Shown: positions 4,678 to 39,783 of the stretch, piece after piece | Numbering within the stretch: the stretch's first letter is position 1 | Layout of the letters: the number at the start of each line of letters is the position of its first letter | IMG/VR virus record: IMGVR_UViG_3300034137_000009 | Coordinates: 1 to 62,985 of that record | Source: a virus | Lineage: Duplodnaviria > Caudoviricetes | DNA length: 62,985 nt | Direction: 5' to 3' (one strand) | Notes under the pieces: generated by a model | Told to the model about the DNA's origin: nothing | Databases searched by the model: none | What the model saw: only the letters and a program-made list of their open reading frames with translations | Made by a program: the position numbers and the translations under genes

Positions 4678-4811
4678 TGTCCAAGGTGATCTCCTCCTGG
4701 CCCACCACCCAGGCCGGCTGGTGCGCGCTCTACAAGCGCCTCGACCGGGAGTTCAAGACAACCACCAACTCCCCCCTGCACCACGACAACAGGTGCCCGC
4801 GTTGTAGGTAG
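4677..4811 (+). CDS. small hypothetical protein with HH..CxxC
   Basis: TGATG coupling; codon bias. Confidence 0.55.
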   Translation: MSKVISSWPTTQAGWCALYKRLDREFKTTTNSPLHHDNRCPRCR

Positions 4812-4896
4812 CCCAGCTACTACTTCGCCACTCTAGTAGCACTCGTGCGCCAGATACGGTAAACTAGCCGCATGGCCCACCCGTATCTACACGCCA

Positions 4897-4942
4897 GTCA
4901 CACCCAGTCACAGCCGGTAGTTCGGTTGTGGCTGGGTGTGAC
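4897..4942 (+). other. 20-bp intergenic hairpin
   Basis: GTCACACCCAGTCACAGCCG / CGGTTGTGGCTGGGTGTGAC with G-T pairs on the + strand. Confidence 0.7.
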
Positions 4943-5078
4943 GGCTACCCGTAGGGCGATCCCCCCGAAGTCTTGACCGTGCCCCGTGTCTATGGTTGGC
5001 TCAACCGTAGGCGCGGGGGACGGCCAGCAGGCTGTCCCACCACCCGACCCGACACAATGCCCCGGAGGCAAGTTCATC

Positions 5079-8599: not shown

Positions 8600-8778
8600 C
8601 GAAGAGTATCTGCATGTGGTACATCGGCCCAGACAAGCTCGAGTGCGGTGCGCCAGCCGTAACCGATGTCACCGTCAAGACCCGCGTCACCCAGGCGGTC
8701 GTGACCCTGTGCGCCAAGCACAAGGCCATCCACGACGAGAACTGGGCACGCGCCCGCAACTCACCGAAGGCAAGCTGA
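8596..8778 (+). CDS. small Cys/His zinc-binding protein
   Basis: C..C...CAKH; GTGA coupling. Confidence 0.6.
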   Translation: MTKSICMWYIGPDKLECGAPAVTDVTVKTRVTQAVVTLCAKHKAIHDENWARARNSPKAS

Positions 8779-8810
8779 CCACCCACTCCCCCACCGGGAA
8801 GGCATCACCA

Positions 8811-10364
8811 ATGACAGAAGCAGTGAAGTCCTGCCTCTCGTGCCCGTCCTACCTGACGGAACCCGCTGAGGTCGTCTCTAAGTTCAAGAAGTCGATCGGT
8901 GCCCCCGTCTGTGGGCGCTTCGGTCACGCGCTCGGCAAGCCCGGCCTGCCCCCCAAGCAGGAGGAGAAGCTGGCGATGCACTACGGCAAGAACTGCCCGG
9001 CCTACGGGGAGCCCCTGCCCCCCGTGCCGCAGGAGCACCGGTTCCAGGTCATGCTCCCCGACCCGGTCGTCGTCTCCCGCACCCCCGACCCCGACATGCA
9101 GGCGCTCGTCAAGACGTGTGCATCCTGCCGTAACTTCGTCCGCGACGACACTGTCGCTACCGAGCTCGGCTGGGCCGCGGGTCTGTGTGCGGCCAAGGGG
9201 AAGCTCATCCTCCCGTCTCGCCAAGTGTTCGAGGCGAAGGACTGCCCGTCGCGTGAGTTCGGCTCGATCCGACAGAACACGACCGGGATGCACCTGCTCC
9301 CCGAATACGAGGACGCGTTTCAGCTGAACGCTGATCCCATCAAGGCCTACTTTAAGGCTAAGGAGGCCGGTGGTATCCCGGACCCCAAGGACTACCCCTC
9401 AGACCGCCCCGTGGCCCCGGACGAGGAGGCATCGGGCATCCGCGCATGGCGGAGGGTAGTTGACCCCGAGGGGTCCGGCAACGAGGTGTTCTTGCCGATC
9501 TACATGTCCTCCCACTTCGACGCCGAGGACCATGCAAAGATTCCCCAGGCTGGTGACGACGAGCACCCCGAGCTCTACGTCGACCACTTCGGCGGCGTCT
9601 TTGCGGCTGCTGTGTCGTGGACCGAGCTCGATGAGACACCCGCCCTGTGGGGTGAGGCCGGTGTCGGTAAGACTGAGCTGTTCCGCCACCTCGCGTACCT
9701 CATGCAGCTTCCGTTCATCCGCATCTCGATCACCGGCAGCACCGAGCTTGACGACCTGGCCGGCAAGATGCACTATGACCCCTCCAAGGGTACGTACTTC
9801 CAGTACGGTCGTCTCCCCCGGTCGTGGGGCAAGCCGTGTGTGCTGTGCATCGACGAGCCGAATGTCGGTCCCCCCGACGTGTGGCAGTTCCTCCGGCCAC
9901 TGACAGACAACAGCAAGCAGCTCGTTCTCGACATGAACGAGGGTGAGACGATGAAGCGTCACACTGACTGCTACCTCGGCATGGCGATGAACCCCGCCTT
10001 CGATCCGAAGAACGTCGGCACGCAGCAGATCGGTGACGCAGACGCCCGTCGCCTGTTCCACGTGTGGGTTCCGCTGCCCCCCGAGGAGCTCGAGCGTGAG
10101 ATCATCGCCAGCCGCGTTGCACTAGACGGGTGGGAGATCGACAAGGGTCGTCTCGACGGAATCATGCAGATCAGCACCGAGCTGCGCGGTCTGTGCCGCG
10201 AGGGTACGCTCCCCATCACCTGGGGTGTGGCGCAGCAGATTAAGGTGGCTCGCGCCCTGCGTTGGTTCACCCCCACAGTCGCCTACCGGCGTGCCGTGGC
10301 CGACTACCTGGAGCCCGAGGCCCAGGACGCCCTCCTGGACGTGGTCCGTGCCAACTTCGCCTAA
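8811..10364 (+). CDS. MoxR/CobS-like AAA+ ATPase with two N-terminal Cys-rich repeats
   Basis: Walker A GEAGVGKT, Walker B LCIDE, sensor AMNP; N-terminal CLSC..C..C and CASC..C..C. Confidence 0.85.
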   Translation: MTEAVKSCLSCPSYLTEPAEVVSKFKKSIGAPVCGRFGHALGKPGLPPKQEEKLAMHYGKNCPAYGEPLPPVPQEHRFQVMLPDPVVVSRTPDPDMQALVKTCASCRNFVRDDTVATELGWAAGLCAAKGKLILPSRQVFEAKDCPSREFGSIRQNTTGMHLLPEYEDAFQLNADPIKAYFKAKEAGGIPDPKDYPSDRPVAPDEEASGIRAWRRVVDPEGSGNEVFLPIYMSSHFDAEDHAKIPQAGDDEHPELYVDHFGGVFAAAVSWTELDETPALWGEAGVGKTELFRHLAYLMQLPFIRISITGSTELDDLAGKMHYDPSKGTYFQYGRLPRSWGKPCVLCIDEPNVGPPDVWQFLRPLTDNSKQLVLDMNEGETMKRHTDCYLGMAMNPAFDPKNVGTQQIGDADARRLFHVWVPLPPEELEREIIASRVALDGWEIDKGRLDGIMQISTELRGLCREGTLPITWGVAQQIKVARALRWFTPTVAYRRAVADYLEPEAQDALLDVVRANFA

Positions 10365-10371
10365 GCACCCC

Positions 10372-10623
10372 ATGAGTGCCGGACGAGATAACGTCGACAC
10401 CATCTGCTGGCGCACCCACCCACACCAGCCCGACAAGGTTTGCCTCCTGCCGGAGGGTCACCTCATCGTTACCGGTGGCATCGAAGAGCACCTGGTGCGT
10501 GAGCACGGTGTTTCCGTGTGGCAGACGCTCAACATCGGTAATCACTGGCAGGTTCACGAGAACCTGCACAGCGACGTGATCCTCGGTTCGGTCTGGGTAC
10601 ACGAGCATGTCCAAGACGCCTAA
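10372..10623 (+). CDS. hypothetical protein (Cys/His-rich)
   Basis: Fills gap; overlaps next start. Confidence 0.5.
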   Translation: MSAGRDNVDTICWRTHPHQPDKVCLLPEGHLIVTGGIEEHLVREHGVSVWQTLNIGNHWQVHENLHSDVILGSVWVHEHVQDA

Positions 10624-10900
10624 CGAGGTTCGGCTTCACGCCGACATCTCGTACAGGCAACTTGACCACTGGACGCGCAAGGGGTACATCACCCCCTTTG
10701 AGCGCGACCGAGAGGGTCAGGGTCACGAACGCGAGTACCCCGAAAAGCAGGCCAACAAGGCCCGCTGGATGGGGTGCCTCGTCAAGCTCGGCATCGACGT
10801 TTCCTCCGCCGAGCGCATAGCACGGCTCGTCGTCGAAGGCGAGAACAAGCTCTACCTCGGTCACGGAGTCACCGTGATCGTGGAACCTCATAGACACTGA
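10607..10900 (+). CDS. MerR-type HTH DNA-binding protein
   Basis: ISYRQLDHWTRKGYITP...GQGHEREY, typical MerR/BldC-like signature. Confidence 0.8.
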   Translation: MSKTPNEVRLHADISYRQLDHWTRKGYITPFERDREGQGHEREYPEKQANKARWMGCLVKLGIDVSSAERIARLVVEGENKLYLGHGVTVIVEPHRH

Positions 10901-10911
10901 GAGGCAATACC

Positions 10912-11484
10912 GTGGGACTCATCGTTTCGCAGGGCTGGACCCCCTTCATCGCCATCATCCAGGACCACCTCCGCATGGCCAGGCCCCAGGTTCTCGGCAA
11001 CTCCAAGAAGGACCAGGAGATTGCCCACTTCGTCTGGGCCGCGCACCGTGCGGCTCGCGGTACGTTCCTATCCTACATCGCCACGACCGAGCGCGCCACG
11101 CTGATGGAGCCGCTGCTGGCCCACAGCGAGCGGAGGTACATCAACATGGTCTCTCCCTCCATGGCGCAGCGCTGGCTAAACGAGATCGAGGACGCCTGGA
11201 AGGCGGGCGAGTTCGAGGAGTACGGTGACGATGATCTGTACTCCCACCTGTGGGAGCAGTTCGTCGAAGTCGTCGTCAAGGGCGAGGACGACTGGTGGAA
11301 CACGGTGTACGAGCCGAGCCGCCGCGAACTCGTCCTGGCCGGGGCTTTCGACCCCCTGCCGCGTGACCGCGAGTACCTCGCCGAGCGCGTCGAGAACCTC
11401 AAGGCCCTCCACACCCCCTACGAGGCCGCGCTCGCCAAGCTGGACGAGGCCGAGGTTACCGAGCTGAACGAGGCACGGCCGTGA
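10912..11484 (+). CDS. hypothetical protein
   Basis: GAGG RBS, GTG start, codon bias. Confidence 0.7.
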   Translation: MGLIVSQGWTPFIAIIQDHLRMARPQVLGNSKKDQEIAHFVWAAHRAARGTFLSYIATTERATLMEPLLAHSERRYINMVSPSMAQRWLNEIEDAWKAGEFEEYGDDDLYSHLWEQFVEVVVKGEDDWWNTVYEPSRRELVLAGAFDPLPRDREYLAERVENLKALHTPYEAALAKLDEAEVTELNEARP

Positions 11485-11657
11485 GAATGGTTCGTATTCA
11501 GGCCCGAACTAGCTTTCGGGACAGGGCTAACCCAAACATCTTCATCTACATGCGCCTCTGTGCCTGGCGCACTCGACACTGGGGTGTAGGTAACAGAACA
11601 TCAGTTCGAGTCTACCGGACGGCGTTCCCACCCCCGATCCCCTAAAAGGGAGGCACC

Positions 11658-14540
11658 ATGACAACAACGTCAGCTGACATCTTCAGCACCAAGAACAACG
11701 TCACCCTGTCGGACACCGACGAGAAGGCAAGGCGGGCGGTCAAGGCCTTCCGATCCCTGCAGCCGACGCTCAGCGCCTACGCCCGCGTGCTCACCAAGAA
11801 CCCGCGCATCGTGGTCGAGATGTCGTCCTCGGACAACGGCTCAACCGACGGCCACAAGATCTACTATCGTCCCCCCATCAGCCTCGGCGAGGACGTTCAG
11901 CACGATCGTCGGCTGTGCGACAAGCGCGACGCCGACCTCACCCCCCTGTGCCGGGCGTGCGAGGTGCGCGAGGACACCCTCGTGACTATCTATCACGAGA
12001 TCGCCCACATCGCTTTCGACAGCTTCGCAGAGACGAAGGACGAGGAGCGTGCTGCGCTACTCGAACGTGCTATCAAGGAGCACGGCGGCCGGTACGCCGC
12101 GCTGCTCCGCCGCAAGATCGAGGTGGCCCCGTCCTACGTGAAGAACTCCTACATCGGTATGGCCGGGTTGATCTCCGACTTTCTCCCGTTGCTGGTCAAC
12201 TGCCTGGAGGACGCCCGCGTCAACCGCGAGATGTTCACTGCCCGCAAGGGCACCAAGGTCATGTTCGATGCCAACACCCACCGTATCTTCGAGGGTGGTG
12301 TCGAGCAGCGCGACCCGAAGACCGGCAAGATCATCACGGTGATGTGGAACGAGTACCCGCTCAACATGCAGGCGCTTGTCGGCGTCTTCTGCAAGGCATC
12401 GGACTACAAGTACGACACGTGGTTCGCCCCCCAGGTCGTTCGCGCCCTGGACGACGCCGAGCTGACCAACCTCGTCAACCGTATGCGGACCGTGCGATCC
12501 GCAGCCGGTGTGTACGAGCTGTCCTTCCCCGTGCTGGCGCGCCTGCGTGAGCTCGGGTTCTGCAAGCTTCCCGACGACCCCGAGCCCGAGCCCACCCCCG
12601 AGGAGAACGACGATGCCCCCCAAGAAGAGGACACCGATCAGCCCGACGAGGCTGACGACGACGGAGGGCGAGGAGGAGATGACAAGCCCGATGCCGACTC
12701 CGACGGACCTGCCTCCGACGGCGACGACGATCCCGAGGGAGACGCCCCCGAGTCTGAGTCCGAGGACGAGGCCACTACAGGGGAAGGCACCGATGCCTCC
12801 GATGGCGGTGAGCCCGACTCCAACGATGATGGAGATGCTGGAGGAACAGGCGCAGGCGAGGATTCAGGCGATGAAGAACGAGGCGAAGGTTCTGATGGCG
12901 ATGGAGCCGAGCCCGAGGAGGCTGGAGCCGACGAGCCCAGCGACGATGCCGGAGACGGCGCAGGAGCCGGTGACGACGGGGAGGCCGATGCCCCTTCGGA
13001 CACCGGAGATGGTGAGGCGGCAGAGGGAGCACCTGGCGAGGAAGGTGATAGCGAGCCCGGTGCGGGGTCTGCTGGAGACGGAGCACCAGTTTCACCCGCA
13101 GACGGATCTGGCGACGATGGTGACGCTGGCGACGGCGAGCCTTCCGATGCCCCCGGAGCCGAGTCTGAGGACGGTGCTGGCGACGGGGGTGATCGTGAAG
13201 CGGAAGGGGGTGAAGGTGACACTGATGCAGCAGCCGAGCCCGACGGGGAGGCCGGTTCTCCGACAGCAGCTGGACAGCCCAACGCTGGACACGCCGAGGG
13301 TGACGACCGGGACGGGCACCCCGAAGGTTCTGATGGAGCACGCGAGGACGACGCTGGAGCTGCTCCTGAGGGTGGAGCCGAAGCTGATCCCGCCGGGCCC
13401 TCGGTGGATGGGGATTCTACGGAGGCGGTAGACGACGAGGTGATCGACACCGGTGCTGACAACGGCACCGGTGGGATCAAGGTCAACGAGTCGGACGACC
13501 CCGATCTGCCGATGGGCACCCCCGACGAGGTGAAAGCCGGTCTGGTCAAGTTCGGCGACCACGAGGAGAAGCCCAAGTCGGTTGATCAGGTCCGCGACGA
13601 GATGGCTGTAGACAAGGCCATCGTGCAGGGCGCGTACTTCGAGACGCCGTCGTCTAGGATTCACGGCGTGCGTGAGCACCGGTACGGCAAGCCCGAGATC
13701 GATCGGCACGGCTTCGACTTCAGCCGTGCATGGAAGAACCTCGGTTCGTACTTCGGCTACTCGACAACCGCCCTCGGACAGGACGGGGAGTTTCTCCCCA
13801 CCGAGAGTGTCCTTGGTCCGGCCCTACTGAGGATGCGGGTCGCGTTCTCCGACAACCAGCGTGGCAACATGGCGCGGCACAAGCGTTCGGGCAGGATCAA
13901 CGGCGCTGTACTGGGTAAGCGTGCCCCCCTGGAGGATGGTCGTCTTTTTCAGAAGAAGACCATGCCTGGCAAGAAGGACTACTTCGTGCTCATCGGTATG
14001 GACGTATCTGGTAGCACCGTTGGCCAGAACATCGTGCTCGAGAAGCAGGCCGTCATGGCGCAGGCCGAGCTGTGCAGGCGCATGGGCATCCCCTTCGCCA
14101 TCTTCGCGCACAGTGGCAACCACCACGACAGCCAGAACGGGTCCGTTGGCATCGACCTTGACATCTACATCATCAAGGAGCCCGGTGAGGTGTGGGACGA
14201 CAAGGTCAAGGAGCGTCTGCTCAAGATCGGTCCCGATGCAGCCAACATCGACGGTCACACGATGGAATACTACCGCAAGGTGCTTGACGGTGTGGATGCG
14301 ACCGACAAGATCATCATGTACTACACCGACGGCAAGATGCCTGCGGAGAACTACGATGAGGAGTTGGAAATCCTCCAGCGCGAGCTCCGCATCTGCAAGC
14401 AGAAAGGCTACACCGTCATGGGTGTTGGCATCCGTACCGACTCCCCCGTCCGACACGGCCTCGATACCGTGCAGGTTGACGGTCCGGCCGATGTTGGCAG
14501 GGTCGTGCGTCACCTCGAGAAGAGGTTGACGGGTGCTTAG
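11658..14540 (+). CDS. CobT-like VWA-domain protein with N-terminal HEXXH and long acidic linker
   Basis: YHEIAH and LEDARV motifs; MIDAS DVSGS, YYTDG; D/E/G/A-rich linker about 12570-13500. Confidence 0.85.
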   Translation: MTTTSADIFSTKNNVTLSDTDEKARRAVKAFRSLQPTLSAYARVLTKNPRIVVEMSSSDNGSTDGHKIYYRPPISLGEDVQHDRRLCDKRDADLTPLCRACEVREDTLVTIYHEIAHIAFDSFAETKDEERAALLERAIKEHGGRYAALLRRKIEVAPSYVKNSYIGMAGLISDFLPLLVNCLEDARVNREMFTARKGTKVMFDANTHRIFEGGVEQRDPKTGKIITVMWNEYPLNMQALVGVFCKASDYKYDTWFAPQVVRALDDAELTNLVNRMRTVRSAAGVYELSFPVLARLRELGFCKLPDDPEPEPTPEENDDAPQEEDTDQPDEADDDGGRGGDDKPDADSDGPASDGDDDPEGDAPESESEDEATTGEGTDASDGGEPDSNDDGDAGGTGAGEDSGDEERGEGSDGDGAEPEEAGADEPSDDAGDGAGAGDDGEADAPSDTGDGEAAEGAPGEEGDSEPGAGSAGDGAPVSPADGSGDDGDAGDGEPSDAPGAESEDGAGDGGDREAEGGEGDTDAAAEPDGEAGSPTAAGQPNAGHAEGDDRDGHPEGSDGAREDDAGAAPEGGAEADPAGPSVDGDSTEAVDDEVIDTGADNGTGGIKVNESDDPDLPMGTPDEVKAGLVKFGDHEEKPKSVDQVRDEMAVDKAIVQGAYFETPSSRIHGVREHRYGKPEIDRHGFDFSRAWKNLGSYFGYSTTALGQDGEFLPTESVLGPALLRMRVAFSDNQRGNMARHKRSGRINGAVLGKRAPLEDGRLFQKKTMPGKKDYFVLIGMDVSGSTVGQNIVLEKQAVMAQAELCRRMGIPFAIFAHSGNHHDSQNGSVGIDLDIYIIKEPGEVWDDKVKERLLKIGPDAANIDGHTMEYYRKVLDGVDATDKIIMYYTDGKMPAENYDEELEILQRELRICKQKGYTVMGVGIRTDSPVRHGLDTVQVDGPADVGRVVRHLEKRLTGA
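12613..13431 (+). CDS. candidate overprinted ORF (+1 frame) inside the VWA gene
   Basis: GAGGAG 7 nt before ATG; 272 codons open; host-frame codons shift to GAT/GGA/GCT/GAA here. Confidence 0.45.
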   Translation: MPPKKRTPISPTRLTTTEGEEEMTSPMPTPTDLPPTATTIPRETPPSLSPRTRPLQGKAPMPPMAVSPTPTMMEMLEEQAQARIQAMKNEAKVLMAMEPSPRRLEPTSPATMPETAQEPVTTGRPMPLRTPEMVRRQREHLARKVIASPVRGLLETEHQFHPQTDLATMVTLATASLPMPPEPSLRTVLATGVIVKRKGVKVTLMQQPSPTGRPVLRQQLDSPTLDTPRVTTGTGTPKVLMEHARTTLELLLRVEPKLIPPGPRWMGILRRR

Positions 14541-14850: not shown

Positions 14851-14886
14851 TCCCGTGCCCCCTGGTGAAGACCGGGGGGCACGGGG
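14851..14886 (+). other. hairpin upstream of the Sm-like gene
   Basis: TCCCGTGCCCCCTGG / CCGGGGGGCACGGGG. Confidence 0.55.
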
Positions 14887-14946
14887 TAGGGTCGGCACTA
14901 CACCCCCGGCCACCGAGGCACGGGGTCACCGACCCGAGGAGCACCC

Positions 14947-15396
14947 GTGACCGTCACCGCCGAGGACATCGTCCAGTTCGCCGAGAAGAAGGTCGTCCTG
15001 ACCTACGTCAACGCGGAGGGCGTCGAGACCTCTACCGAGGGGAAGGCCGAGGCCGCGAACGCGCTTGGCATCCTGCTCAAGCCGAAGGGCAAGACCAACC
15101 TCGAGCTCGTGGAGCTGGCGTCCATCGTCGGCGTCGAGCACGCCCCCGAGCCCACCAAGGAGCTCAAGGCCAAGACCCTCAAGGTCGTGGACCACGGGGC
15201 CGCGAAGACCCACCTGCTCGAGCGCCACGGCTACACCCTGTCCGAGGTCAACGGCCTCGACGAGGCAACCGCGCTCGAAGTCCACACCCAGATCGACCAC
15301 CCGGCCGAGGACCTCGGTCACGTCCACGGGCCGAAGGCCTCCGCCGAGAAGGCCGAGGCCATCGAGGCGCAGGCCGCCGAGGCCGACGCGGAGTAG
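14947..15396 (+). CDS. putative RNA-binding protein (Sm/Hfq-like N-terminal pattern, His-rich C-terminal domain)
   Basis: GAGGAG RBS, strong codon bias; KKVVLTY..EG...GILL...LVELASIVGVE beta pattern; HLLERHG..H..IDH..LGHVH. Confidence 0.6.
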   Translation: MTVTAEDIVQFAEKKVVLTYVNAEGVETSTEGKAEAANALGILLKPKGKTNLELVELASIVGVEHAPEPTKELKAKTLKVVDHGAAKTHLLERHGYTLSEVNGLDEATALEVHTQIDHPAEDLGHVHGPKASAEKAEAIEAQAAEADAE

Positions 15397-15399
15397 ACT

Positions 15400-15860
15400 C
15401 CTATGCCACCACCTCCGACCCCAGGGGAACCCTGAAGGGCCAGAGGGGAACGCCACAGTGGTCGGTGGCCTGGTGGTGGCGTAGGGCATAACAGAACGGA
15501 GTGGTGACGTAGAAGGGTGGCACCACCGCGCTGACTAGGTGGGACGAGGTCAGCACAGGGGCTCATGGGATGAACAGGCAACGGCGTGAAACCCCAGGCA
15601 TGGGGGTCTGTTCATAAACTCGGGGACATCGCCGCCTCGAGTACGCTGGTTCGACTCCAGCGGGGTCCACATCACGCTGGGCTAGCCCGTTGGGCTGTGA
15701 GGACCCCAAGGTCTATCAGTACACGGCGGGTGACGGGAGGGGATGCCCGCCCAGCGTGACCAAACTGCCTGGTTCCTCTGTCGAGGTCTGGCCGGGTAGA
15801 TGCCGTACCAAGCTGCGGCAGCCGGTCTCAAGGTACCGGTCAACGGAAAACTGAGGCGCG
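15400..15860 (+). ncRNA. candidate large structured RNA containing a circularly permuted tRNA-like domain
   Basis: No credible ORF; many consecutive stems; T-arm GCTGG-TTCGACT-CCAGC (15645-15661) followed by GGGGTCC that pairs 7/7 with downstream GGACCCC (15701-15707). Confidence 0.65.
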
Positions 15861-15861
15861 T

Positions 15862-15895
15862 ACACCCCCCACAGTCTAACTGTGGGGGGTGTTGT
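15862..15895 (+). terminator. intrinsic terminator-like hairpin
   Basis: ACACCCCCCACAG-TCTAA-CTGTGGGGGGTGT then TG-rich tail. Confidence 0.7.
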
Positions 15896-15920
15896 GCTGT
15901 GTAGCCAGTCATGCTAGAAT
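15892..15920 (+). promoter_or_regulatory. SigA-like promoter
   Basis: TTGTGC-N17-TAGAAT with TGn extension; downstream TACGGCAC shared with the 6702 promoter. Confidence 0.6.
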
Positions 15921-15952
15921 AGCGTTACGGCACACCCCTATCCGGAGGACTT

Positions 15953-16567
15953 ATGCCAGTCTATAACCGGCTTGGATCGTCACGAGACATCGCCAAGCAC
16001 CCGTTCATCGTGATCTGTACCGAGTCCCACTGCACCCTCCACATGTCCGCCCCTTCGTATGAGGAAGGCGTGCGCGTGTACGGTGCCCACCACTGCCCCC
16101 ACCTGGGAGGCCCTACCAAGATCGGATACAGCGTGACACTCACCATCGTAGAGACAGCGTGGCAGAAGCTGGATGCCGTGATGGATCTCATCATGGACCC
16201 CGCCGCATCGACTCTGCCGGAGCAGACCATGCGTGCCAAGTACGAGGCTCGTGGCATGGCCGAGATCATCGCCCTGTTCATGGGTCCGTTCTTCACCACC
16301 CCCGACGACGTGGCGAAGGAGGCGAAGAAGCGCTGGCAGGCCCGCCGTGACGGTGACACCGCATACGAGACGGTCGGCCTCGGTCACCTCAAGTACCAGG
16401 CGCCCCCCGGCGGTCCGCGTGACAAGACTGTCGAGCCCGCGCACAAGCTCACCGACAAGGAGATCGCAGGCATCAAGGCCGCGCTCGGCTCAGGCATGAT
16501 GAAGGACGTGGAGCTCGCCAAGATGTACGGCGTCAGTGTCGCCATCATCCGACAGGTGTCCGCTTGA
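15953..16567 (+). CDS. protein with N-terminal Cys/His motif and C-terminal HTH
   Basis: KLTDKEIAGIK...DVELAKMYGVSVAIIRQV; GGAGG RBS. Confidence 0.75.
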   Translation: MPVYNRLGSSRDIAKHPFIVICTESHCTLHMSAPSYEEGVRVYGAHHCPHLGGPTKIGYSVTLTIVETAWQKLDAVMDLIMDPAASTLPEQTMRAKYEARGMAEIIALFMGPFFTTPDDVAKEAKKRWQARRDGDTAYETVGLGHLKYQAPPGGPRDKTVEPAHKLTDKEIAGIKAALGSGMMKDVELAKMYGVSVAIIRQVSA

Positions 16568-19106: not shown

Positions 19107-19659
19107 AGGTGGCGCGTACAAGCCCGGCACCCGTGAGAAGTACACCGACTCGGGAAAGATGTCGGAGAACCGCTACGCCTGGGTTCGCACGATCCTAGGA
19201 CAGATGGTGCTCTACCGTCACGTTGAGGAGCCGCTCGCCAACGAGCCGACAGTTGGCGACACACTCCAGCTCATGATGCCCCGCCCCGGTGGCCGGGCTA
19301 TCAGCATGAACTTTTCCGCACTAACCCTGGCGGAGCTGGAAGCAATACGCGAGTTCTTCAACCTCCTATTCGATCTGGCTACCCCGGTAGTCAAGGCTAG
19401 AGACAAGGTGGCACAGGATGCGTTTGACGCAGGGGATGACTCTTACGCCCGAATCTATCGACAGGTTCCGCAGCTCATTATCCGCAAGGGGCCGGTCGGA
19501 CAACACCGTCAGGGCGTACACGACGGACCTGAGGATGCTGCTGCGGGAGACGAACATGACGGAGATCTCGATGGAGGACTTCGAGGACGTAGCGCTGGAG
19601 TGGCTCCAGTCGAAGAGGAAGACCCTGGCACCGAAGTCGACGGGTCGGAGGCTGACTAG
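19099..19659 (+). CDS. hypothetical protein (3' part overlaps the recombinase)
   Basis: Coupled start; acidic tail encoded in the -1 frame of the recombinase. Confidence 0.6.
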   Translation: MARGGAYKPGTREKYTDSGKMSENRYAWVRTILGQMVLYRHVEEPLANEPTVGDTLQLMMPRPGGRAISMNFSALTLAELEAIREFFNLLFDLATPVVKARDKVAQDAFDAGDDSYARIYRQVPQLIIRKGPVGQHRQGVHDGPEDAAAGDEHDGDLDGGLRGRSAGVAPVEEEDPGTEVDGSEAD

Positions 19660-20251
19660 CCTTAAGGCCTTCGTCAAGTGGGCCAAGTGGCCTAGCGACA
19701 TGCTCGATGAGTACTCCGCGCCCACCCCAGCCAAGGGCATCCCGCACCCCCTGCCCGAGGGCTTCGACGGAGTCACCCGCATGGTGAACGCGGCCAACAA
19801 CGAGCGGCAGCAGGCGCTCATCACCCTCTGCGGTATGCTCGGGTGTCGCGTCGCCGAGGCGCTCGCTGTTAAGGCTAGCGACTTCGACCTCAACAACATG
19901 ACACTGTCGATCCGCGGCAAGGGCGACAAGACGCGCATCGTACCTATCTCCCCCCGTGCATGGGAGATCCTCTCCCTGCCTGTCACCCGTGCCTATGTGG
20001 CCGGGGACGGAGAGGTCGTCGGACTGCGCGACCGCTTCGCCCGGCGCGTGATCACCGATCTCGGTATCCGCGCTGGACTGCAGCGTCGTGTGTCGAGTCA
20101 TGACCTGCGTGCCACGTTCGGCAGCGCGGTCTACAACAAGACACTCGACCTCCGTGTCACGCAGGAGTTGCTCGGTCACGCGTCGTCTGCTACGACCGAG
20201 CTCTACACCGGCATCAGCATGGACAAAATGCGAGGGGCGGTGGAGCTGTGA
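19436..20251 (+). CDS. tyrosine recombinase (XerC/D-like, no arm-binding domain)
   Basis: Catalytic R (GCRVAE), K (RGKGDK), HxxR (HDLR), H (LLGH), Y (TELY); alternative start 19418. Confidence 0.92.
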   Translation: MTLTPESIDRFRSSLSARGRSDNTVRAYTTDLRMLLRETNMTEISMEDFEDVALEWLQSKRKTLAPKSTGRRLTSLKAFVKWAKWPSDMLDEYSAPTPAKGIPHPLPEGFDGVTRMVNAANNERQQALITLCGMLGCRVAEALAVKASDFDLNNMTLSIRGKGDKTRIVPISPRAWEILSLPVTRAYVAGDGEVVGLRDRFARRVITDLGIRAGLQRRVSSHDLRATFGSAVYNKTLDLRVTQELLGHASSATTELYTGISMDKMRGAVEL

Positions 20252-20300: not shown

Positions 20301-20480
20301 ATGAGCCGTCGCTACACCTGCTCACAGTGTCTTAAGGATATCAAGCTGCTAGAGGACGCGATCCTCAAGGAGGACATCGACCGCACTACCAAGCGCCCCC
20401 ACTGGCGTGTACGCTGGTTCGACAACGGAGCCTGCGTTGATCTGTTTTACAAGAAGCGACCGCACGTGGAGGTTCGATGA
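20301..20480 (+). CDS. small zinc-binding protein
   Basis: CSQC...C; overlaps next start. Confidence 0.5.
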   Translation: MSRRYTCSQCLKDIKLLEDAILKEDIDRTTKRPHWRVRWFDNGACVDLFYKKRPHVEVR

Positions 20481-28935: not shown

Positions 28936-29255
28936 ACGTCGTCCCGCCTCCCGCCTGCGACTGCTATGCCTGCACGTTCTGGGATGCCGTCGACGACGGT
29001 AGGGTTCTGCCATCATGGAAGGACTACAGCAGGGCTTCGCTTTACGAAGACCTGGTTCATCTAGTTGAGCGCACCATCGGGCAGGGTAAGGAGATGTCTA
29101 TCTCGGAGGTGTGGCGACAGCAAAGGTTCCGTGGTCCGACGGACTACAACATGCTGAGAAAGGTCATGCACGATATGGCACGACATGGACTGATTGTTTG
29201 CGTCCACGTCGACCGTGCAGGTAAGTGTCGACGATACGGAAGGATTGAGACATGA
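28932..29255 (+). CDS. hypothetical protein, possible winged helix
   Basis: ATGA coupling; CDCYAC, helical C-terminus. Confidence 0.55.
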   Translation: MNVVPPPACDCYACTFWDAVDDGRVLPSWKDYSRASLYEDLVHLVERTIGQGKEMSISEVWRQQRFRGPTDYNMLRKVMHDMARHGLIVCVHVDRAGKCRRYGRIET

Positions 29256-39425: not shown

Positions 39426-39533
39426 CCGGTGGGATCGGCCCACCCTCACCCCCGTCCCGGCCACCGCCGGGAGCCACACGGCCCTCTCGTGCCTATGACG
39501 GGGGATGGCAAACCTACCACTAGAGAGGATGCT

Positions 39534-39722
39534 ATGGCCGCACCGCGTAAGAGGACATACGTCAACTGTCCAAACTGCAACGCCGAGATAAGCGTAACAA
39601 AAAGCAGCAAGGACAACGTAGTCTGTCCCGACTGTGACACGATCATCGCGCTCAGCGTGCTACACGACGGTCGACGCCTCCCACCACCGGTGGATGGGAG
39701 CAAGTTCGACATCATCGGCTAG
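39534..39722 (+). CDS. zinc-ribbon protein
   Basis: CPNC...CPDC; GAGAGG RBS. Confidence 0.65.
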   Translation: MAAPRKRTYVNCPNCNAEISVTKSSKDNVVCPDCDTIIALSVLHDGRRLPPPVDGSKFDIIG

Positions 39723-39728
39723 AGCGAC

Positions 39729-39763
39729 TCGACCCCCGCACCCGGTCAGGGTACGGGGGTCGA
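39729..39763. terminator. hairpin between convergent genes
   Basis: TCGACCCCCGCACCC / GGGTACGGGGGTCGA. Confidence 0.65.
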
Positions 39764-39783
39764 ATCTTGCCACCCCAAGTGGT

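What the first reader, a model, noticed from the sequence alone, without database searches (positions are those of the whole stretch)
15400..15895. ~460-nt structured RNA with a circularly permuted tRNA-like core
Seen: the gap has no credible ORF and is tiled with stems: 15400-15413/15472-15485 (14 bp), 15501-06/15521-26, 15530-35/15549-54, 15570-79/15606-15, 15618-25/15635-42, and further hairpins at 15726-15840. It ends in a terminator. A canonical T-arm (5 bp plus TTCGACT) is followed directly by GGGGTCC-A, whose perfect 7-bp partner GGACCCC lies DOWNSTREAM at 15701-15707. After that come AA and a GGTC...GACC stem in the D-arm position. Known: this T-arm, closed acceptor, D-arm order is that of bacterial YrlA Y RNAs and of two-piece tmRNA precursors. 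Inference: a phage tRNA-mimic RNA, possibly cut by RNase P/Z into two pieces or acting as a decoy for anticodon nucleases or ribosome-rescue factors. The downstream pairing gives A3-U70 rather than the Ala G3-U70. A weaker upstream partner (GGGCTC, 15559-15564) would give G3-U70 with A73, so two folds may compete.
Basis: partly seen in the sequence, partly recalled or inferred. Interest (0 to 1): 0.85.

Follow-up and report, generated by a model that had tools for sequence, protein, structure and literature searches.

The report
Orphan tRNA-like element in phage gap
A half-kilobase non-coding, hairpin-rich stretch of an uncultured soil phage carries one convincing tRNA-style T-arm and acceptor strand, but it fits no known RNA family and no relative could be fetched to test it, so its role as a tRNA mimic remains a plausible guess.

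Summary
The sequence features are real. The gap 15397-15952 is non-coding: GC3 is flat, and 0 of 8 small ORFs hit Pfam or PHROGs. It folds better on the + strand (z -4.5 against -3.05). It holds the only T-arm-like hairpin of the 63-kb record. That hairpin is followed directly by GGGGTCC-A, with a perfect partner GGACCCC at 15701-07. A strict T-arm plus such a partner appeared in 0 of 300 shuffled windows.

The proposed D-arm is not credible. Its strands lie 43 nt apart and overlap an 11-bp stem. The nested folding model puts the closed acceptor 8 kcal/mol above the optimum and prefers the weak upstream partner (G3-U70, A73). A pseudoknot estimate makes the two folds about equal.

Family tests fail. 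ARAGORN at default settings finds nothing. Rfam tRNA, tmRNA, tmRNA_permuted and YrlA give no match at E<=10 on the record. There is no Ro60 gene and no GNCGAA motif, and the closed form has A3-U70.

None of the syntenic relatives checked has the element. IMG/VR holds no relative above 45% identity. Closer ones (50-64%) exist but could not be fetched, so covariation is untested. No RNA data were found.

Best reading (0.4): a lineage-specific tRNA-mimic module in a long structured 3' region.

The parts
14947..15396 (+). 149-aa early gene (phrog_6646, unknown function). The structured region follows its stop codon directly.
   Evidence: GC3 0.93-1.0; phrog_6646 E 1.5e-25; orthologues in 97 phage records, all under 60% identity.
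14885..14892 (+). GGTAGGGT, a candidate -10-like promoter element upstream of the 149-aa gene (second copy at 14819-26). Inferred.
   Evidence: 4 copies in the window, all on the + strand and upstream of ORFs; 1.59 expected; 6 of 100 shuffles reach 4.
15399..15486 (+). Domain A: long hairpin closed by a 15-bp stem (15399-413/15472-86).
   Evidence: Pair probabilities 0.97-1.0; z -2.7 on +, -3.7 on -; inverted repeat I2.
15501..15554 (+). Domain B: two hairpins (15501-06/15521-26 and 15530-36/15548-54).
   Evidence: In the optimum fold; z -1.9 on +, -2.9 on -.
15559..15564 (+). Upstream partner GGGCTC. It pairs with 15663-68 (6 bp, 2 G-U) and gives G3-U70 with A73 in a cloverleaf-like four-way junction.
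   Evidence: P 0.98-0.99 in the full-length ensemble. By chance such a G-U-tolerant 6-mer is expected with P 0.22-0.41.
15570..15615 (+). Arm I: a 10-bp stem plus an inner 5-bp stem with a GGCA loop.
   Evidence: P 0.9-1.0.
15618..15642 (+). Arm II: an 8-bp stem with a 9-nt loop, directly upstream of the T-arm. It sits in the position of the YrlA 'V' arm or of an anticodon arm.
   Evidence: P 0.93-1.0.
15645..15661 (+). Canonical T-arm: GCTGG / TTCGACT / CCAGC.
   Evidence: P about 1.0; the only such hairpin in the window; 0.027 expected per shuffled window.
15662..15669 (+). Acceptor 3' strand GGGGTCC plus discriminator-like A. It is followed by CAT; no CCA is encoded.
   Evidence: 27 nt (15645-71) are identical to the 3' end of a tRNA-Met of an unrelated low-GC phage. 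90% identity over 30 nt to a Microbacterium phage tRNA-Pro.
15670..15700 (+). Intervening loop of the closed-acceptor form. It contains the 5' arm of the 11-bp stem.
15701..15707 (+). Downstream partner GGACCCC: 7 perfect pairs with 15662-68. The pair at 3:70 would be A-U.
   Evidence: P(chance) 0.009-0.027; forms with P 0.9-1.0 when 15640-15710 is folded alone; Rfam beta_tmRNA local alignment.
15672..15759 (+). Domain D: hairpin closed by a perfect 11-bp stem (15672-82/15749-59). It excludes the closed acceptor in nested folds but could coexist with it as a pseudoknot.
   Evidence: Inverted repeat I4; P 0.82-1.0; z -3.0 on +, -2.2 on -; pseudoknot estimate.
15765..15840 (+). Domain E: three hairpins (15765-99 with 4 G-U pairs, 15801-20, 15821-40).
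   Evidence: z -3.0 on +, -1.0 on -.
15862..15892 (+). 14-bp perfect hairpin with a 3-nt loop, followed by TTGTGCTG. Likely the transcript end (inferred).
   Evidence: I1; z -5.6. Not called by the terminator scan on the + strand.
15912..15920 (+). TGCTAGAAT, an extended -10-like element for the next gene (15953-16567). Read by eye only.
   Evidence: The promoter scan found 0 sites with both hexamers.

Best explanation
The gap is a lineage-specific, non-coding, + strand-structured RNA region of about 0.46 kb. It is most likely transcribed as the long 3' part of the 149-aa early gene's transcript and ended by the hairpin at 15862-92.

Embedded in it is a tRNA-derived module: a canonical T-arm stacked directly on a 7-nt acceptor 3' strand plus A. 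I think this module works as a tRNA mimic. It would form a 12-bp acceptor/T minihelix that host tRNA-end enzymes (RNase P, 3' trimming, CCA-adding enzyme, T-loop modifiers) can recognise.

The acceptor can be closed in two ways:
- By the perfect downstream partner 15701-07. This is the statistically non-random one and gives the T-arm/closed-acceptor order seen in M. smegmatis YrlA and in two-piece tmRNA precursors.
- By the weak upstream partner 15559-64. This is preferred by the nested energy model and gives a cloverleaf-like junction with G3-U70/A73.

Cleavage 5' of G15701 (or of G15559), with trimming after A15669/C15670, would split the transcript and leave a stable tRNA-like end or a two-piece particle.

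Shown: the sequence features, the non-coding state, the strand bias of the structure, the rarity by chance, and the absence from relatives.
Inferred: transcription, processing, and any binding partner or benefit to the phage.

It is not a member of the tRNA, tmRNA or YrlA families.
For: - One T-arm-like hairpin in 126 kb of both strands, and it lies in a non-coding gap.
- A strict T-arm is expected 0.027 times per window. With a perfect 7-nt partner it occurred in 0 of 300 shuffles. The partner alone has P 0.009-0.027.
- The T-arm plus acceptor strand is of true tRNA type: 27 nt are identical to a phage tRNA-Met 3' end, and 28-30 nt are about 90% identical to actinophage tRNA-Pro and tRNA-Val 3' ends.
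- The only Rfam clan that touches it is the tRNA/tmRNA clan. There, the T arm plus closed acceptor aligns to beta_tmRNA model positions 86-150 (12.7 bits, E 0.1).
- The structure is strand-specific in domains C-E (z -2.6, -3.0, -3.0 on +; -1.1, -2.2, -1.0 on -). The whole region gives z -4.53 with 0 of 100 shuffles as good, against -3.05 on the - strand.
- The closed acceptor forms with P 0.9-1.0 when folded locally. Together with the 11-bp stem as a pseudoknot it comes to about -249 to -244 kcal/mol, against -248.7 for the nested optimum.
- A precedent exists: M. smegmatis YrlA has a 7-bp closed acceptor, is cut by RNase P, and receives CA onto an encoded C (PMC4201824, section 8). Here the strand is followed by A-C.
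Against: - No homologue was found, so there is no covariation. 0 of 14 syntenic IMG/VR loci and 0 of 11 loci have a T-arm-like hairpin near the gene (L010 has one relaxed match 3 kb away). The four annotated phages have gaps of only 68-168 nt there and no ARAGORN tRNA in the loci. The L010 gap of 218 nt does not align.
- No RNA data.
- In the full-length nested ensemble the closed acceptor has P about 0. Forcing it costs 7.9 kcal/mol.
- The upstream partner that the model prefers is expected by chance with P 0.22-0.41.
- There is no D-arm, no canonical anticodon arm and no encoded CCA.
- ARAGORN at default settings and all Rfam gathering thresholds are negative.
- Hairpin-rich gaps are common in this phage: 3 of 11 control gaps reach z<=-3 on at least one strand.
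- No tRNA- or RNA-repair gene was found among 40 other ORFs scanned.
- The first-stage scan covered very many windows, so a 1-in-1000 coincidence is not excluded.
Confidence: 0.4

Rival explanations
1. Non-functional remnant. The 3' half of a former phage tRNA gene was left by a deletion or rearrangement inside an intergenic region whose hairpins serve only termination and mRNA stability. The downstream complement is coincidence.
For: Only the T-arm and the 3' acceptor strand are tRNA-like. Nothing upstream resembles a D or anticodon arm. Rfam tRNA gives no match at E<=10. The T-loop motif GGTTCGANTCC occurs 4 times in the Perlina record and 3 times in TIN2, away from this locus; these may be tRNA genes but were not run through ARAGORN. 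The 3' end resembles actinophage tRNA 3' ends. The element is absent from every relative seen.
Against: The perfect 7-nt partner 32 nt downstream has a chance probability of 0.009-0.027. The T-arm is still flawless while everything else would have decayed beyond recognition. The surrounding about 450 nt has no similarity to anything, so a simple deletion within a tRNA array is not visible.
Confidence: 0.22
2. Chance look-alike. This is a hairpin-rich 3' region (terminators, RNase sites) in which one hairpin happens to have a T-loop sequence and a nearby complement.
For: A relaxed T-arm pattern is expected 0.89 times per window (58% of shuffles). Other gaps of the window are as structured by z-score. 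The first-stage scan covered a very large number of windows. Relaxed ARAGORN 'permuted tmRNAs' in this window at -ps85 and 30 at -ps80.
Against: The strict pattern (G53, TTCRANY, C61, 5 Watson-Crick pairs) is expected 0.027 times per window, and with the partner it occurred in 0 of 300 shuffles. 27 nt are identical to a real tRNA 3' end.
Confidence: 0.13
3. A YrlA-type Y RNA that uses the host's Ro60 (Rsr): V arm, T arm, closed acceptor, then a degenerate D region.
For: The order V-like hairpin (15618-42), T-arm, 7-bp closed acceptor matches the YrlA layout. The A-C after the acceptor strand matches the M. smegmatis case, where CA is added (PMC4201824, sections 6 and 8). YrlA-like RNAs occur in Gordonia, Mycobacterium and mycobacteriophages (same paper, section 5).
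Against: The Rfam YrlA model gives no match at E<=10 in the record. There is no TROVE/Ro60 gene in the 63 kb, whereas nearly all YrlAs lie within 4 kb of Ro60 on the same strand (section 5). There is no GNCGAAN0-1G motif in the gap. There is no D stem-loop, which together with T is the most conserved part of YrlA.
Confidence: 0.07
4. attP-type fragment. The 3' end of a host tRNA gene is carried by the phage as the core of its integration site.
For: A tyrosine integrase is encoded 3.7 kb downstream (19418-20251). T-arm plus 3' acceptor is exactly the part that tRNA-targeting phages carry (established knowledge; see also the abstract of PMC4383910 in the listing).
Against: The exact 20-mer of T-loop, stem and acceptor occurs in none of the 185,579 species genomes except one stretch of an archaeal MAG. 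There ARAGORN calls no tRNA, and the flanks read like coding DNA by eye. The integrase is syntenic in Perlina and ReqiDocB7, which have no such fragment at this locus. Six ORFs separate it from int, on the same strand.
Confidence: 0.05
5. A divergent two-piece (permuted) tmRNA: acceptor piece up to 15670, coding piece from 15701 with a tag reading frame downstream.
For: The Rfam beta_tmRNA and tmRNA_permuted models align locally to the T arm and closed acceptor (12.7 and 7.9 bits). ARAGORN with thresholds lowered to 87% or less draws a permuted tRNA-like domain with a 5+1-bp P2 helix (15632-36/15725-29) and a 25-aa tag. Phage two-piece tmRNAs exist (passages of PMC9004378).
Against: Scores are far below the gathering thresholds (84 and 47 bits). 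There are no matches at E<=10 on the whole record. ARAGORN at default settings finds none, and the relaxed setting gives 7-30 calls in this window, mostly inside long ORFs. The closed form has A3-U70 instead of the G3-U70 that alanyl-tRNA synthetase needs. No CCA is encoded. The proposed tags (AVPS...PPTV, or AWFLCRGLAG) do not end like known degradation tags (recalled). The P2 fold costs 11.9 kcal/mol.
Confidence: 0.04

Closest known systems
Mycobacterium smegmatis YrlA (bacterial Y RNA with a tRNA-like domain; Chen et al. 2014, PMC4201824)
   Same: A hairpin directly upstream of a canonical T-arm. The T-arm is followed by a 7-bp acceptor-like stem closed by a loop. The acceptor strand is followed by N-C, so CA addition would give a CCA end. 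A 7-bp stem is the stated determinant of RNase P cleavage.
   Different: There is no D stem-loop, no GNCGAAN0-1G Ro-binding motif, no Ro60 gene nearby and no match to the Rfam YrlA model. The closing loop is 32 nt. The element sits inside a much longer structured region of about 460 nt.
Two-piece (circularly permuted) tmRNA genes, including phage-borne ones (Rfam RF01850 and RF04321; Melnitz phage, PMC9004378)
   Same: The gene order is T-arm, acceptor 3' strand, intervening segment, acceptor 5' strand. A weak P2-like pairing is possible between the strand before the T-arm and the strand after a 14-nt linker.
   Different: A3-U70 instead of G3-U70, no encoded CCA, no convincing tag frame or pseudoknots, and scores far below threshold.
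Ordinary phage tRNA genes (tRNA-Met of the low-GC phage contigs L008/L009; Microbacterium phage BAjuniper tRNA-Pro)
   Same: The T-arm, acceptor 3' strand and the following ACA are identical over 27 nt to the tRNA-Met. There is 90% identity over 30 nt to the tRNA-Pro.
   Different: No 5' acceptor strand at the normal distance upstream, no D-arm, no 7-nt anticodon loop. ARAGORN and Rfam tRNA are negative.
tRNA-gene 3' fragments at phage attP sites
   Same: An isolated T-arm plus 3' acceptor strand in a phage that encodes a tyrosine integrase.
   Different: No bacterial tRNA with this 3' end among 185,579 species genomes. The fragment is not adjacent to int. It is absent from relatives with the same integrase.

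Membership tests
YrlA (Rfam RF02553) | Match to the family covariance model | tested here: not met
   0 matches at E<=10 in the whole 62,985-base record. Not listed at E<=10 for 15300-16000.
YrlA (Rfam RF02553) | Encoded within about 4 kb of a Ro60/TROVE gene on the same strand (PMC4201824, section 5) | tested here: not met
   PF05731 TROVE gives 0 matches in the record, which is about 81% complete.
YrlA (Rfam RF02553) | GNCGAAN0-1G motif near the 5' end (PMC4201824, section 6) | tested here: not met
   No match on either strand of 15397-15900. There is not even a CGAA on the + strand.
YrlA (Rfam RF02553) | Nearly invariant T and D stem-loops with an acceptor-like stem-loop between them | tested here: inconclusive
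   The T stem-loop and the 7-bp closing stem are present. There is no D stem-loop: GGTC and GACC are 43 nt apart, and with the acceptor forced only 3 bp form there.
Two-piece tmRNA (Rfam RF01850, RF04321) | Match to the covariance model, or a default ARAGORN call | tested here: not met
   beta_tmRNA 12.7 bits against gathering 84. tmRNA_permuted 7.9 bits against 47, and 0 matches at E<=10 on the record. ARAGORN at default settings finds 0 genes. It is called only at -ps87 or lower, where 7-30 other calls appear in the window.
Two-piece tmRNA (Rfam RF01850, RF04321) | G3-U70 pair and A73 for alanine charging (established knowledge) | tested here: not met
   With the downstream partner, the pair at 3:70 is A15703-U15666. 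A73 is present.
Two-piece tmRNA (Rfam RF01850, RF04321) | Tag reading frame with a resume codon and a degradation-type C-terminus; pseudoknots | tested here: inconclusive
   Only arbitrary frames are found: AVPSCGSRSQGTGQRKTEARTPPTV, or AWFLCRGLAG read by eye. ARAGORN reports 'Tag not identified'.
One-piece tmRNA (Rfam RF00023) | Match to the covariance model | tested here: not met
   0 matches at E<=10.
tRNA (Rfam RF00005) | Cloverleaf with D-arm, 7-nt anticodon loop, T-arm and 7-bp acceptor | tested here: not met
   0 matches at E<=10. ARAGORN finds 0 genes. The upstream-partner cloverleaf has a 46-nt arm I, an 8-bp arm II with a 9-nt loop, and a 6-bp acceptor.
attP core copied from a host tRNA gene | Identity of the fragment with the 3' end of a bacterial tRNA gene | tested here: not met
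   The exact 20-mer occurs in 1 of 185,579 species genomes, an archaeal MAG stretch where ARAGORN calls no tRNA. The true host may be unsampled.

The most novel reading that the evidence does not exclude
This is a phage-borne, Ro60-independent tRNA mimic of a new kind. The T-arm/closed-acceptor minihelix is cut by RNase P at G15701 and CCA-tailed at 15669-70. That gives a two-piece tRNA-like particle without an anticodon arm. A built-in switch to an alternative G3-U70/A73 cloverleaf (upstream partner) and a pseudoknot with the 11-bp stem decide which form is made. The particle titrates a host tRNA-binding factor, such as a tRNA-targeting defence nuclease, a modification enzyme or a rescue factor, early in infection.
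Probability: 0.1. Interest if true: 0.8.

Novelty: new variant of a known kind. Interest (0 to 1): 0.4.

Why it matters
Known tRNA mimics with a closed acceptor in bacteria and phages are tied either to Ro60 (YrlA) or to trans-translation (two-piece tmRNA). A phage RNA with the same core but without the Ro motif, the D-arm, the Ala identity pair or a tag frame would be a third use of this architecture. It would be a candidate for a phage decoy or processing signal aimed at host tRNA enzymes or tRNA-targeting defences in actinobacteria. At present it is a single sequence from one soil metagenome. Its value is as a concrete, cheaply testable candidate: one in-vitro RNase P assay, one Northern blot, and one look at the contigs of the closer relatives.

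Tried and rejected
**Homologue hunt, nothing usable**
- blastn of 14900-16000 and of the gap against 50,697 phage records gave no match at 1e-5 and only 22-30-nt pieces at E<=10. Plasmids gave one 32-nt piece.
- IMG/VR by protein, using the 149-aa, 960-aa and 204-aa proteins and alignments A2 and A4: the best relative is L010 at 45%, without the element.
- IMG/VR by pattern: 2 and 22 stretches. All are ordinary tRNAs or unrelated DNA.
- Metagenome pattern scan: 12 stretches. Nine are one marine sequence, 95% identical among the eight aligned, lying in long open frames on both strands in L021, so probably coding. One is an ordinary tRNA-Ala with a chance downstream match. The last two are one unrelated sequence.
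- Earlier findings of this scan: none.

**Expression**
- No RNA holder is listed. The only holder is the probable source sample.
- Laying its contigs showed one 17-kb contig covering 14900-16600 with 0 differences and no variants. This is the same sample, so it is not independent.

**ARAGORN with lowered thresholds**
- It gives a permuted tmRNA call and odd tRNA calls. The same settings give 7 calls at -ps85 and 30 at -ps80 elsewhere in the window. Rejected as evidence.

**Other checks**
- A 15-nt repeat of 15641-55 at 20409-23, near the integrase, reads as part of an open frame (by eye) and is taken as chance.
- No mobile-element signs: no flanking direct repeats, no terminal inverted repeats and no second copy in the window.
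- A UUCAUAA string (15611-17, Met-like anticodon loop) has no pairing stem around it. Rejected by eye.

**Literature**
- Searches were: YrlA + phage + tRNA-like; two-piece tmRNA + phage; actinobacteriophage + tmRNA; tRNA-like + bacteriophage + decoy + anticodon nuclease. Nothing in these listings described such an element in this phage group.
- The supplements of PMC4201824 (YrlA alignments, list of phages) were not seen. They could refine the comparison with phage YrlAs.
Full report
**What the window is**

The window is a whole IMG/VR virus record of 62,985 bases, about 81% complete, with 62.7% G+C. Its genes place it among actinophages of the Gordonia, Rhodococcus and Tsukamurella group (Montyvirus, Demosthenesvirus, ReqiDocB7, Perlina, TIN2). 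The 149-aa protein upstream of the finding has relatives in 97 phage records, all below 60% identity.

The local gene order is:
- AAA-ATPase (8616-10364);
- CobT-like protein (11658-14540);
- the 149-aa gene (14947-15396, phrog_6646);
- the gap;
- a 204-aa gene (15953-16567, phrog_5406);
- a pyrimidine-dimer glycosylase.

Yes, for nearly every sequence statement.
- One search shows the T-arm GCTGG/TTCGACT/CCAGC (15645-61), GGGGTCC-A (15662-69), GGACCCC (15701-07), then AA and GGTC, and the upstream GGGCTC (15559-64).
- The listed stems all appear in the ViennaRNA optimum with pair probabilities of 0.9-1.0.
- The gap is non-coding. GC3 is 0.93-1.0 and 0.75-0.88 in the flanking genes and flat in the gap. 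None of 8 small ORFs on either strand hits PHROGs or Pfam at E<=1.
- The + strand folds to -248.7 kcal/mol, z -4.53, with 0 of 100 shuffles as good. The - strand gives z -3.05.
- Split into domains, the part from 15557 to 15845 is clearly better on the + strand (z -2.6, -3.0, -3.0 against -1.1, -2.2, -1.0). The first 160 nt are not.

Two caveats apply.
- Hairpin-rich gaps are common in this phage. 3 of 11 control gaps reach z<=-3 on at least one strand, although none is as stable per base on the + strand.
- The end hairpin (14 perfect pairs, z -5.6) has a poor U tail and is not called by the terminator scan.

**Is the tRNA-like core more than chance?**

- The window holds exactly one hairpin with a 5-bp stem and a TTYRANY loop on both strands, and it is this one.
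- A relaxed pattern is expected 0.89 times per shuffled window.
- The strict pattern (G53, TTCRANY, C61, Watson-Crick stem) is expected only 0.027 times (8 of 300 shuffles).
- The strict pattern with a perfect 7-nt partner within 150 nt occurred in 0 of 300 shuffles.
- GGACCCC occurs 12 times in 126 kb. That gives P about 0.009 for a copy within 100 nt downstream and 0.027 for either side.
- The strand is of genuine tRNA type. 27 nt equal the 3' end of a tRNA-Met in an unrelated low-GC phage. The best blastn pieces in the phage collection are 3' ends of an actinophage tRNA-Pro and a tRNA-Val.
- By contrast, the upstream partner (6 pairs, two of them G-U) is expected by chance with P 0.22-0.41.

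**Which fold?**

The evidence pulls two ways.

The nested energy model favours the upstream partner.
- It gives the upstream partner P 0.98 and the downstream closure P about 0. This is because a perfect 11-bp stem (15672-82/15749-59) uses the closing loop.
- Forcing the closure costs 7.9 kcal/mol. Adding the P2-like helix costs 11.9.

Other results keep the closure in play.
- Folded locally (15640-15710), the closure has P 0.9-1.0.
- It has P 0.34 when the transcript ends at 15712, and about 0 once it extends to 15745 or beyond.
- The upstream pairing has P 0.98 when the transcript ends at 15672 and 0.34 at 15690.
- If the closure and the 11-bp stem coexist as a pseudoknot, a rough sum gives -249 to -244 kcal/mol, the same as the nested optimum within error.

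So the energy model cannot decide, and the statistically unusual partner is the downstream one.

GGTC (15710-13) and GACC (15757-60) are 43 nt apart and overlap the 11-bp stem. With the acceptor forced, only 3 bp form there.

**Family tests**

- ARAGORN at default settings finds nothing in the window.
- Rfam at gathering thresholds finds nothing.
- At E<=10 the only relevant match is a local piece of the two-piece beta_tmRNA model, covering the T arm plus closed acceptor (12.7 bits against gathering 84, E 0.1). A truncated 7.9-bit piece of tmRNA_permuted also appears.
- On the whole record the models for YrlA, tmRNA, tRNA and tmRNA_permuted give 0 matches at E<=10.
- There is no TROVE/Ro60 gene and no GNCGAAN0-1G motif. 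Both are part of the YrlA definition (PMC4201824, sections 5 and 6, read in full).
- The closed form has A3-U70, not the G3-U70 needed for alanine charging, and CCA is not encoded.
- ARAGORN with thresholds lowered to 87% or less draws a permuted tmRNA here. The same settings give 7 to 30 such calls in the window, mostly inside long ORFs. That call is not evidence.

**Relatives**

The element is lineage-specific.
- In four annotated relatives the gap after the orthologous gene is 68-168 nt, and ARAGORN finds no tRNA in these loci.
- In the closest fetchable relative, L010, the 149-aa gene is 45% identical and the next gene 37% identical. Its gap is 218 nt and does not align.
- None of 14 further IMG/VR loci has a T-arm-like hairpin within 2.5 kb.
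- Pattern scans of IMG/VR, the metagenome contigs and 185,579 species genomes found no homologue.
This is the main thing left open.
- No RNA run holds the sequence, and the only DNA holder is the probable source sample.

**The attP reading**

A tyrosine integrase lies 3.7 kb downstream. However:
- the same integrase is syntenic in Perlina and ReqiDocB7, which lack the fragment;
- no bacterial species genome carries a tRNA with this 3' end.
I give this reading 0.05.

**Most likely mechanism**

Confidence 0.4.
- The region is the long structured 3' part of the early 149-aa transcript. A -10-like GGTAGGGT lies upstream, the hairpin 15862-92 lies at the end, and a separate TGCTAGAAT precedes the next gene.
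- It contains a tRNA-derived minihelix: the T-arm stacked on the acceptor, 12 bp in either fold.
- Host tRNA-end enzymes can recognise this minihelix, as shown for M. smegmatis YrlA. That RNA has a 7-bp closed acceptor, is cut by RNase P, and receives CA onto an encoded C (PMC4201824, section 8).
- Cleavage would split the RNA and leave a tRNA-like end or a two-piece particle.

Transcription, processing and any partner are inferred. Only the sequence features and statistics are shown.

The rivals, in order, are:
- a dead tRNA 3' half in a hairpin-rich spacer (0.22);
- chance (0.13);
- a YrlA-type RNA for host Ro60 (0.07);
- an attP fragment (0.05);
- a divergent two-piece tmRNA (0.04).

**Novelty and score**

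If real, it is a new variant of the closed-acceptor tRNA mimics, outside both known contexts (Ro60 and trans-translation). As it stands it is one sequence without covariation or expression data, so interest is 0.4.

Noticed in passing
window 4678-4985: Another non-coding gap with strong + strand structure (z -4.8, against -2.0 on the - strand). It has a weak sub-threshold Rfam match to the actinobacterial sRNA Ms_IGR-5 (4902-5028, 20.2 bits against gathering 45, E 0.013).
   Followed up: partly
window 14819-26, 14885-92, 22632-39, 28998-29005: GGTAGGGT occurs 4 times, always on the + strand and just upstream of ORFs (1.59 expected; 6 of 100 shuffles reach 4). It may be the -10 part of a phage early promoter. 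Two copies flank a hairpin upstream of the 149-aa gene.
   Followed up: partly
window 39426-39783 and 10365-10606: These gaps are strongly structured mainly on the - strand (z -4.65 and -4.63).
   Followed up: no
window 14947-15396 and alignment A4: The 149-aa protein of unknown function has an invariant histidine-rich pattern across 12 relatives (H89, H94, H113, H118, H125, H127; KPKGKT; HLxxRH; LGHxH). This suggests a metal site or a catalytic site. It is conserved in phages that lack the RNA element.
   Followed up: no
window 19418-20251: A small (277-aa) XerC-like tyrosine integrase is conserved in synteny in Perlina and ReqiDocB7 (43% identity). The attP of this phage group was not located.
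   Followed up: partly
window 20409-20423: An exact 15-nt copy of 15641-55 (the strand before the T-arm plus half of the T-arm) lies, by eye, inside an open frame after the integrase gene. Judged to be chance (blastn-short E 0.027).
   Followed up: yes
L020-L022, L025, L027-L031 (marine metagenome contigs): Nine contigs share one GC-rich sequence, 95% identical among the eight aligned. It contains GGTTCGATTCC, then GGGGTCC, 17 nt, and GGACCCC. In L021 it lies inside long open frames on both strands. ARAGORN (3 of the 9 tested) and Rfam (3 of the 9 tested) find nothing. It is probably coding DNA and not an RNA relative.
   Followed up: partly
L026 1314-1448: An ALIL pseudoknot (IS3-type frameshift element, 51.8 bits) lies on an unrelated metagenome contig fetched by the pattern scan.
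   Followed up: no
window 8616-14540: A MoxR-type AAA ATPase (AAA_5) is followed by a 960-aa CobT-like protein. The pair is conserved in this phage group and lies just upstream of the finding. No link to the RNA was found.
   Followed up: no
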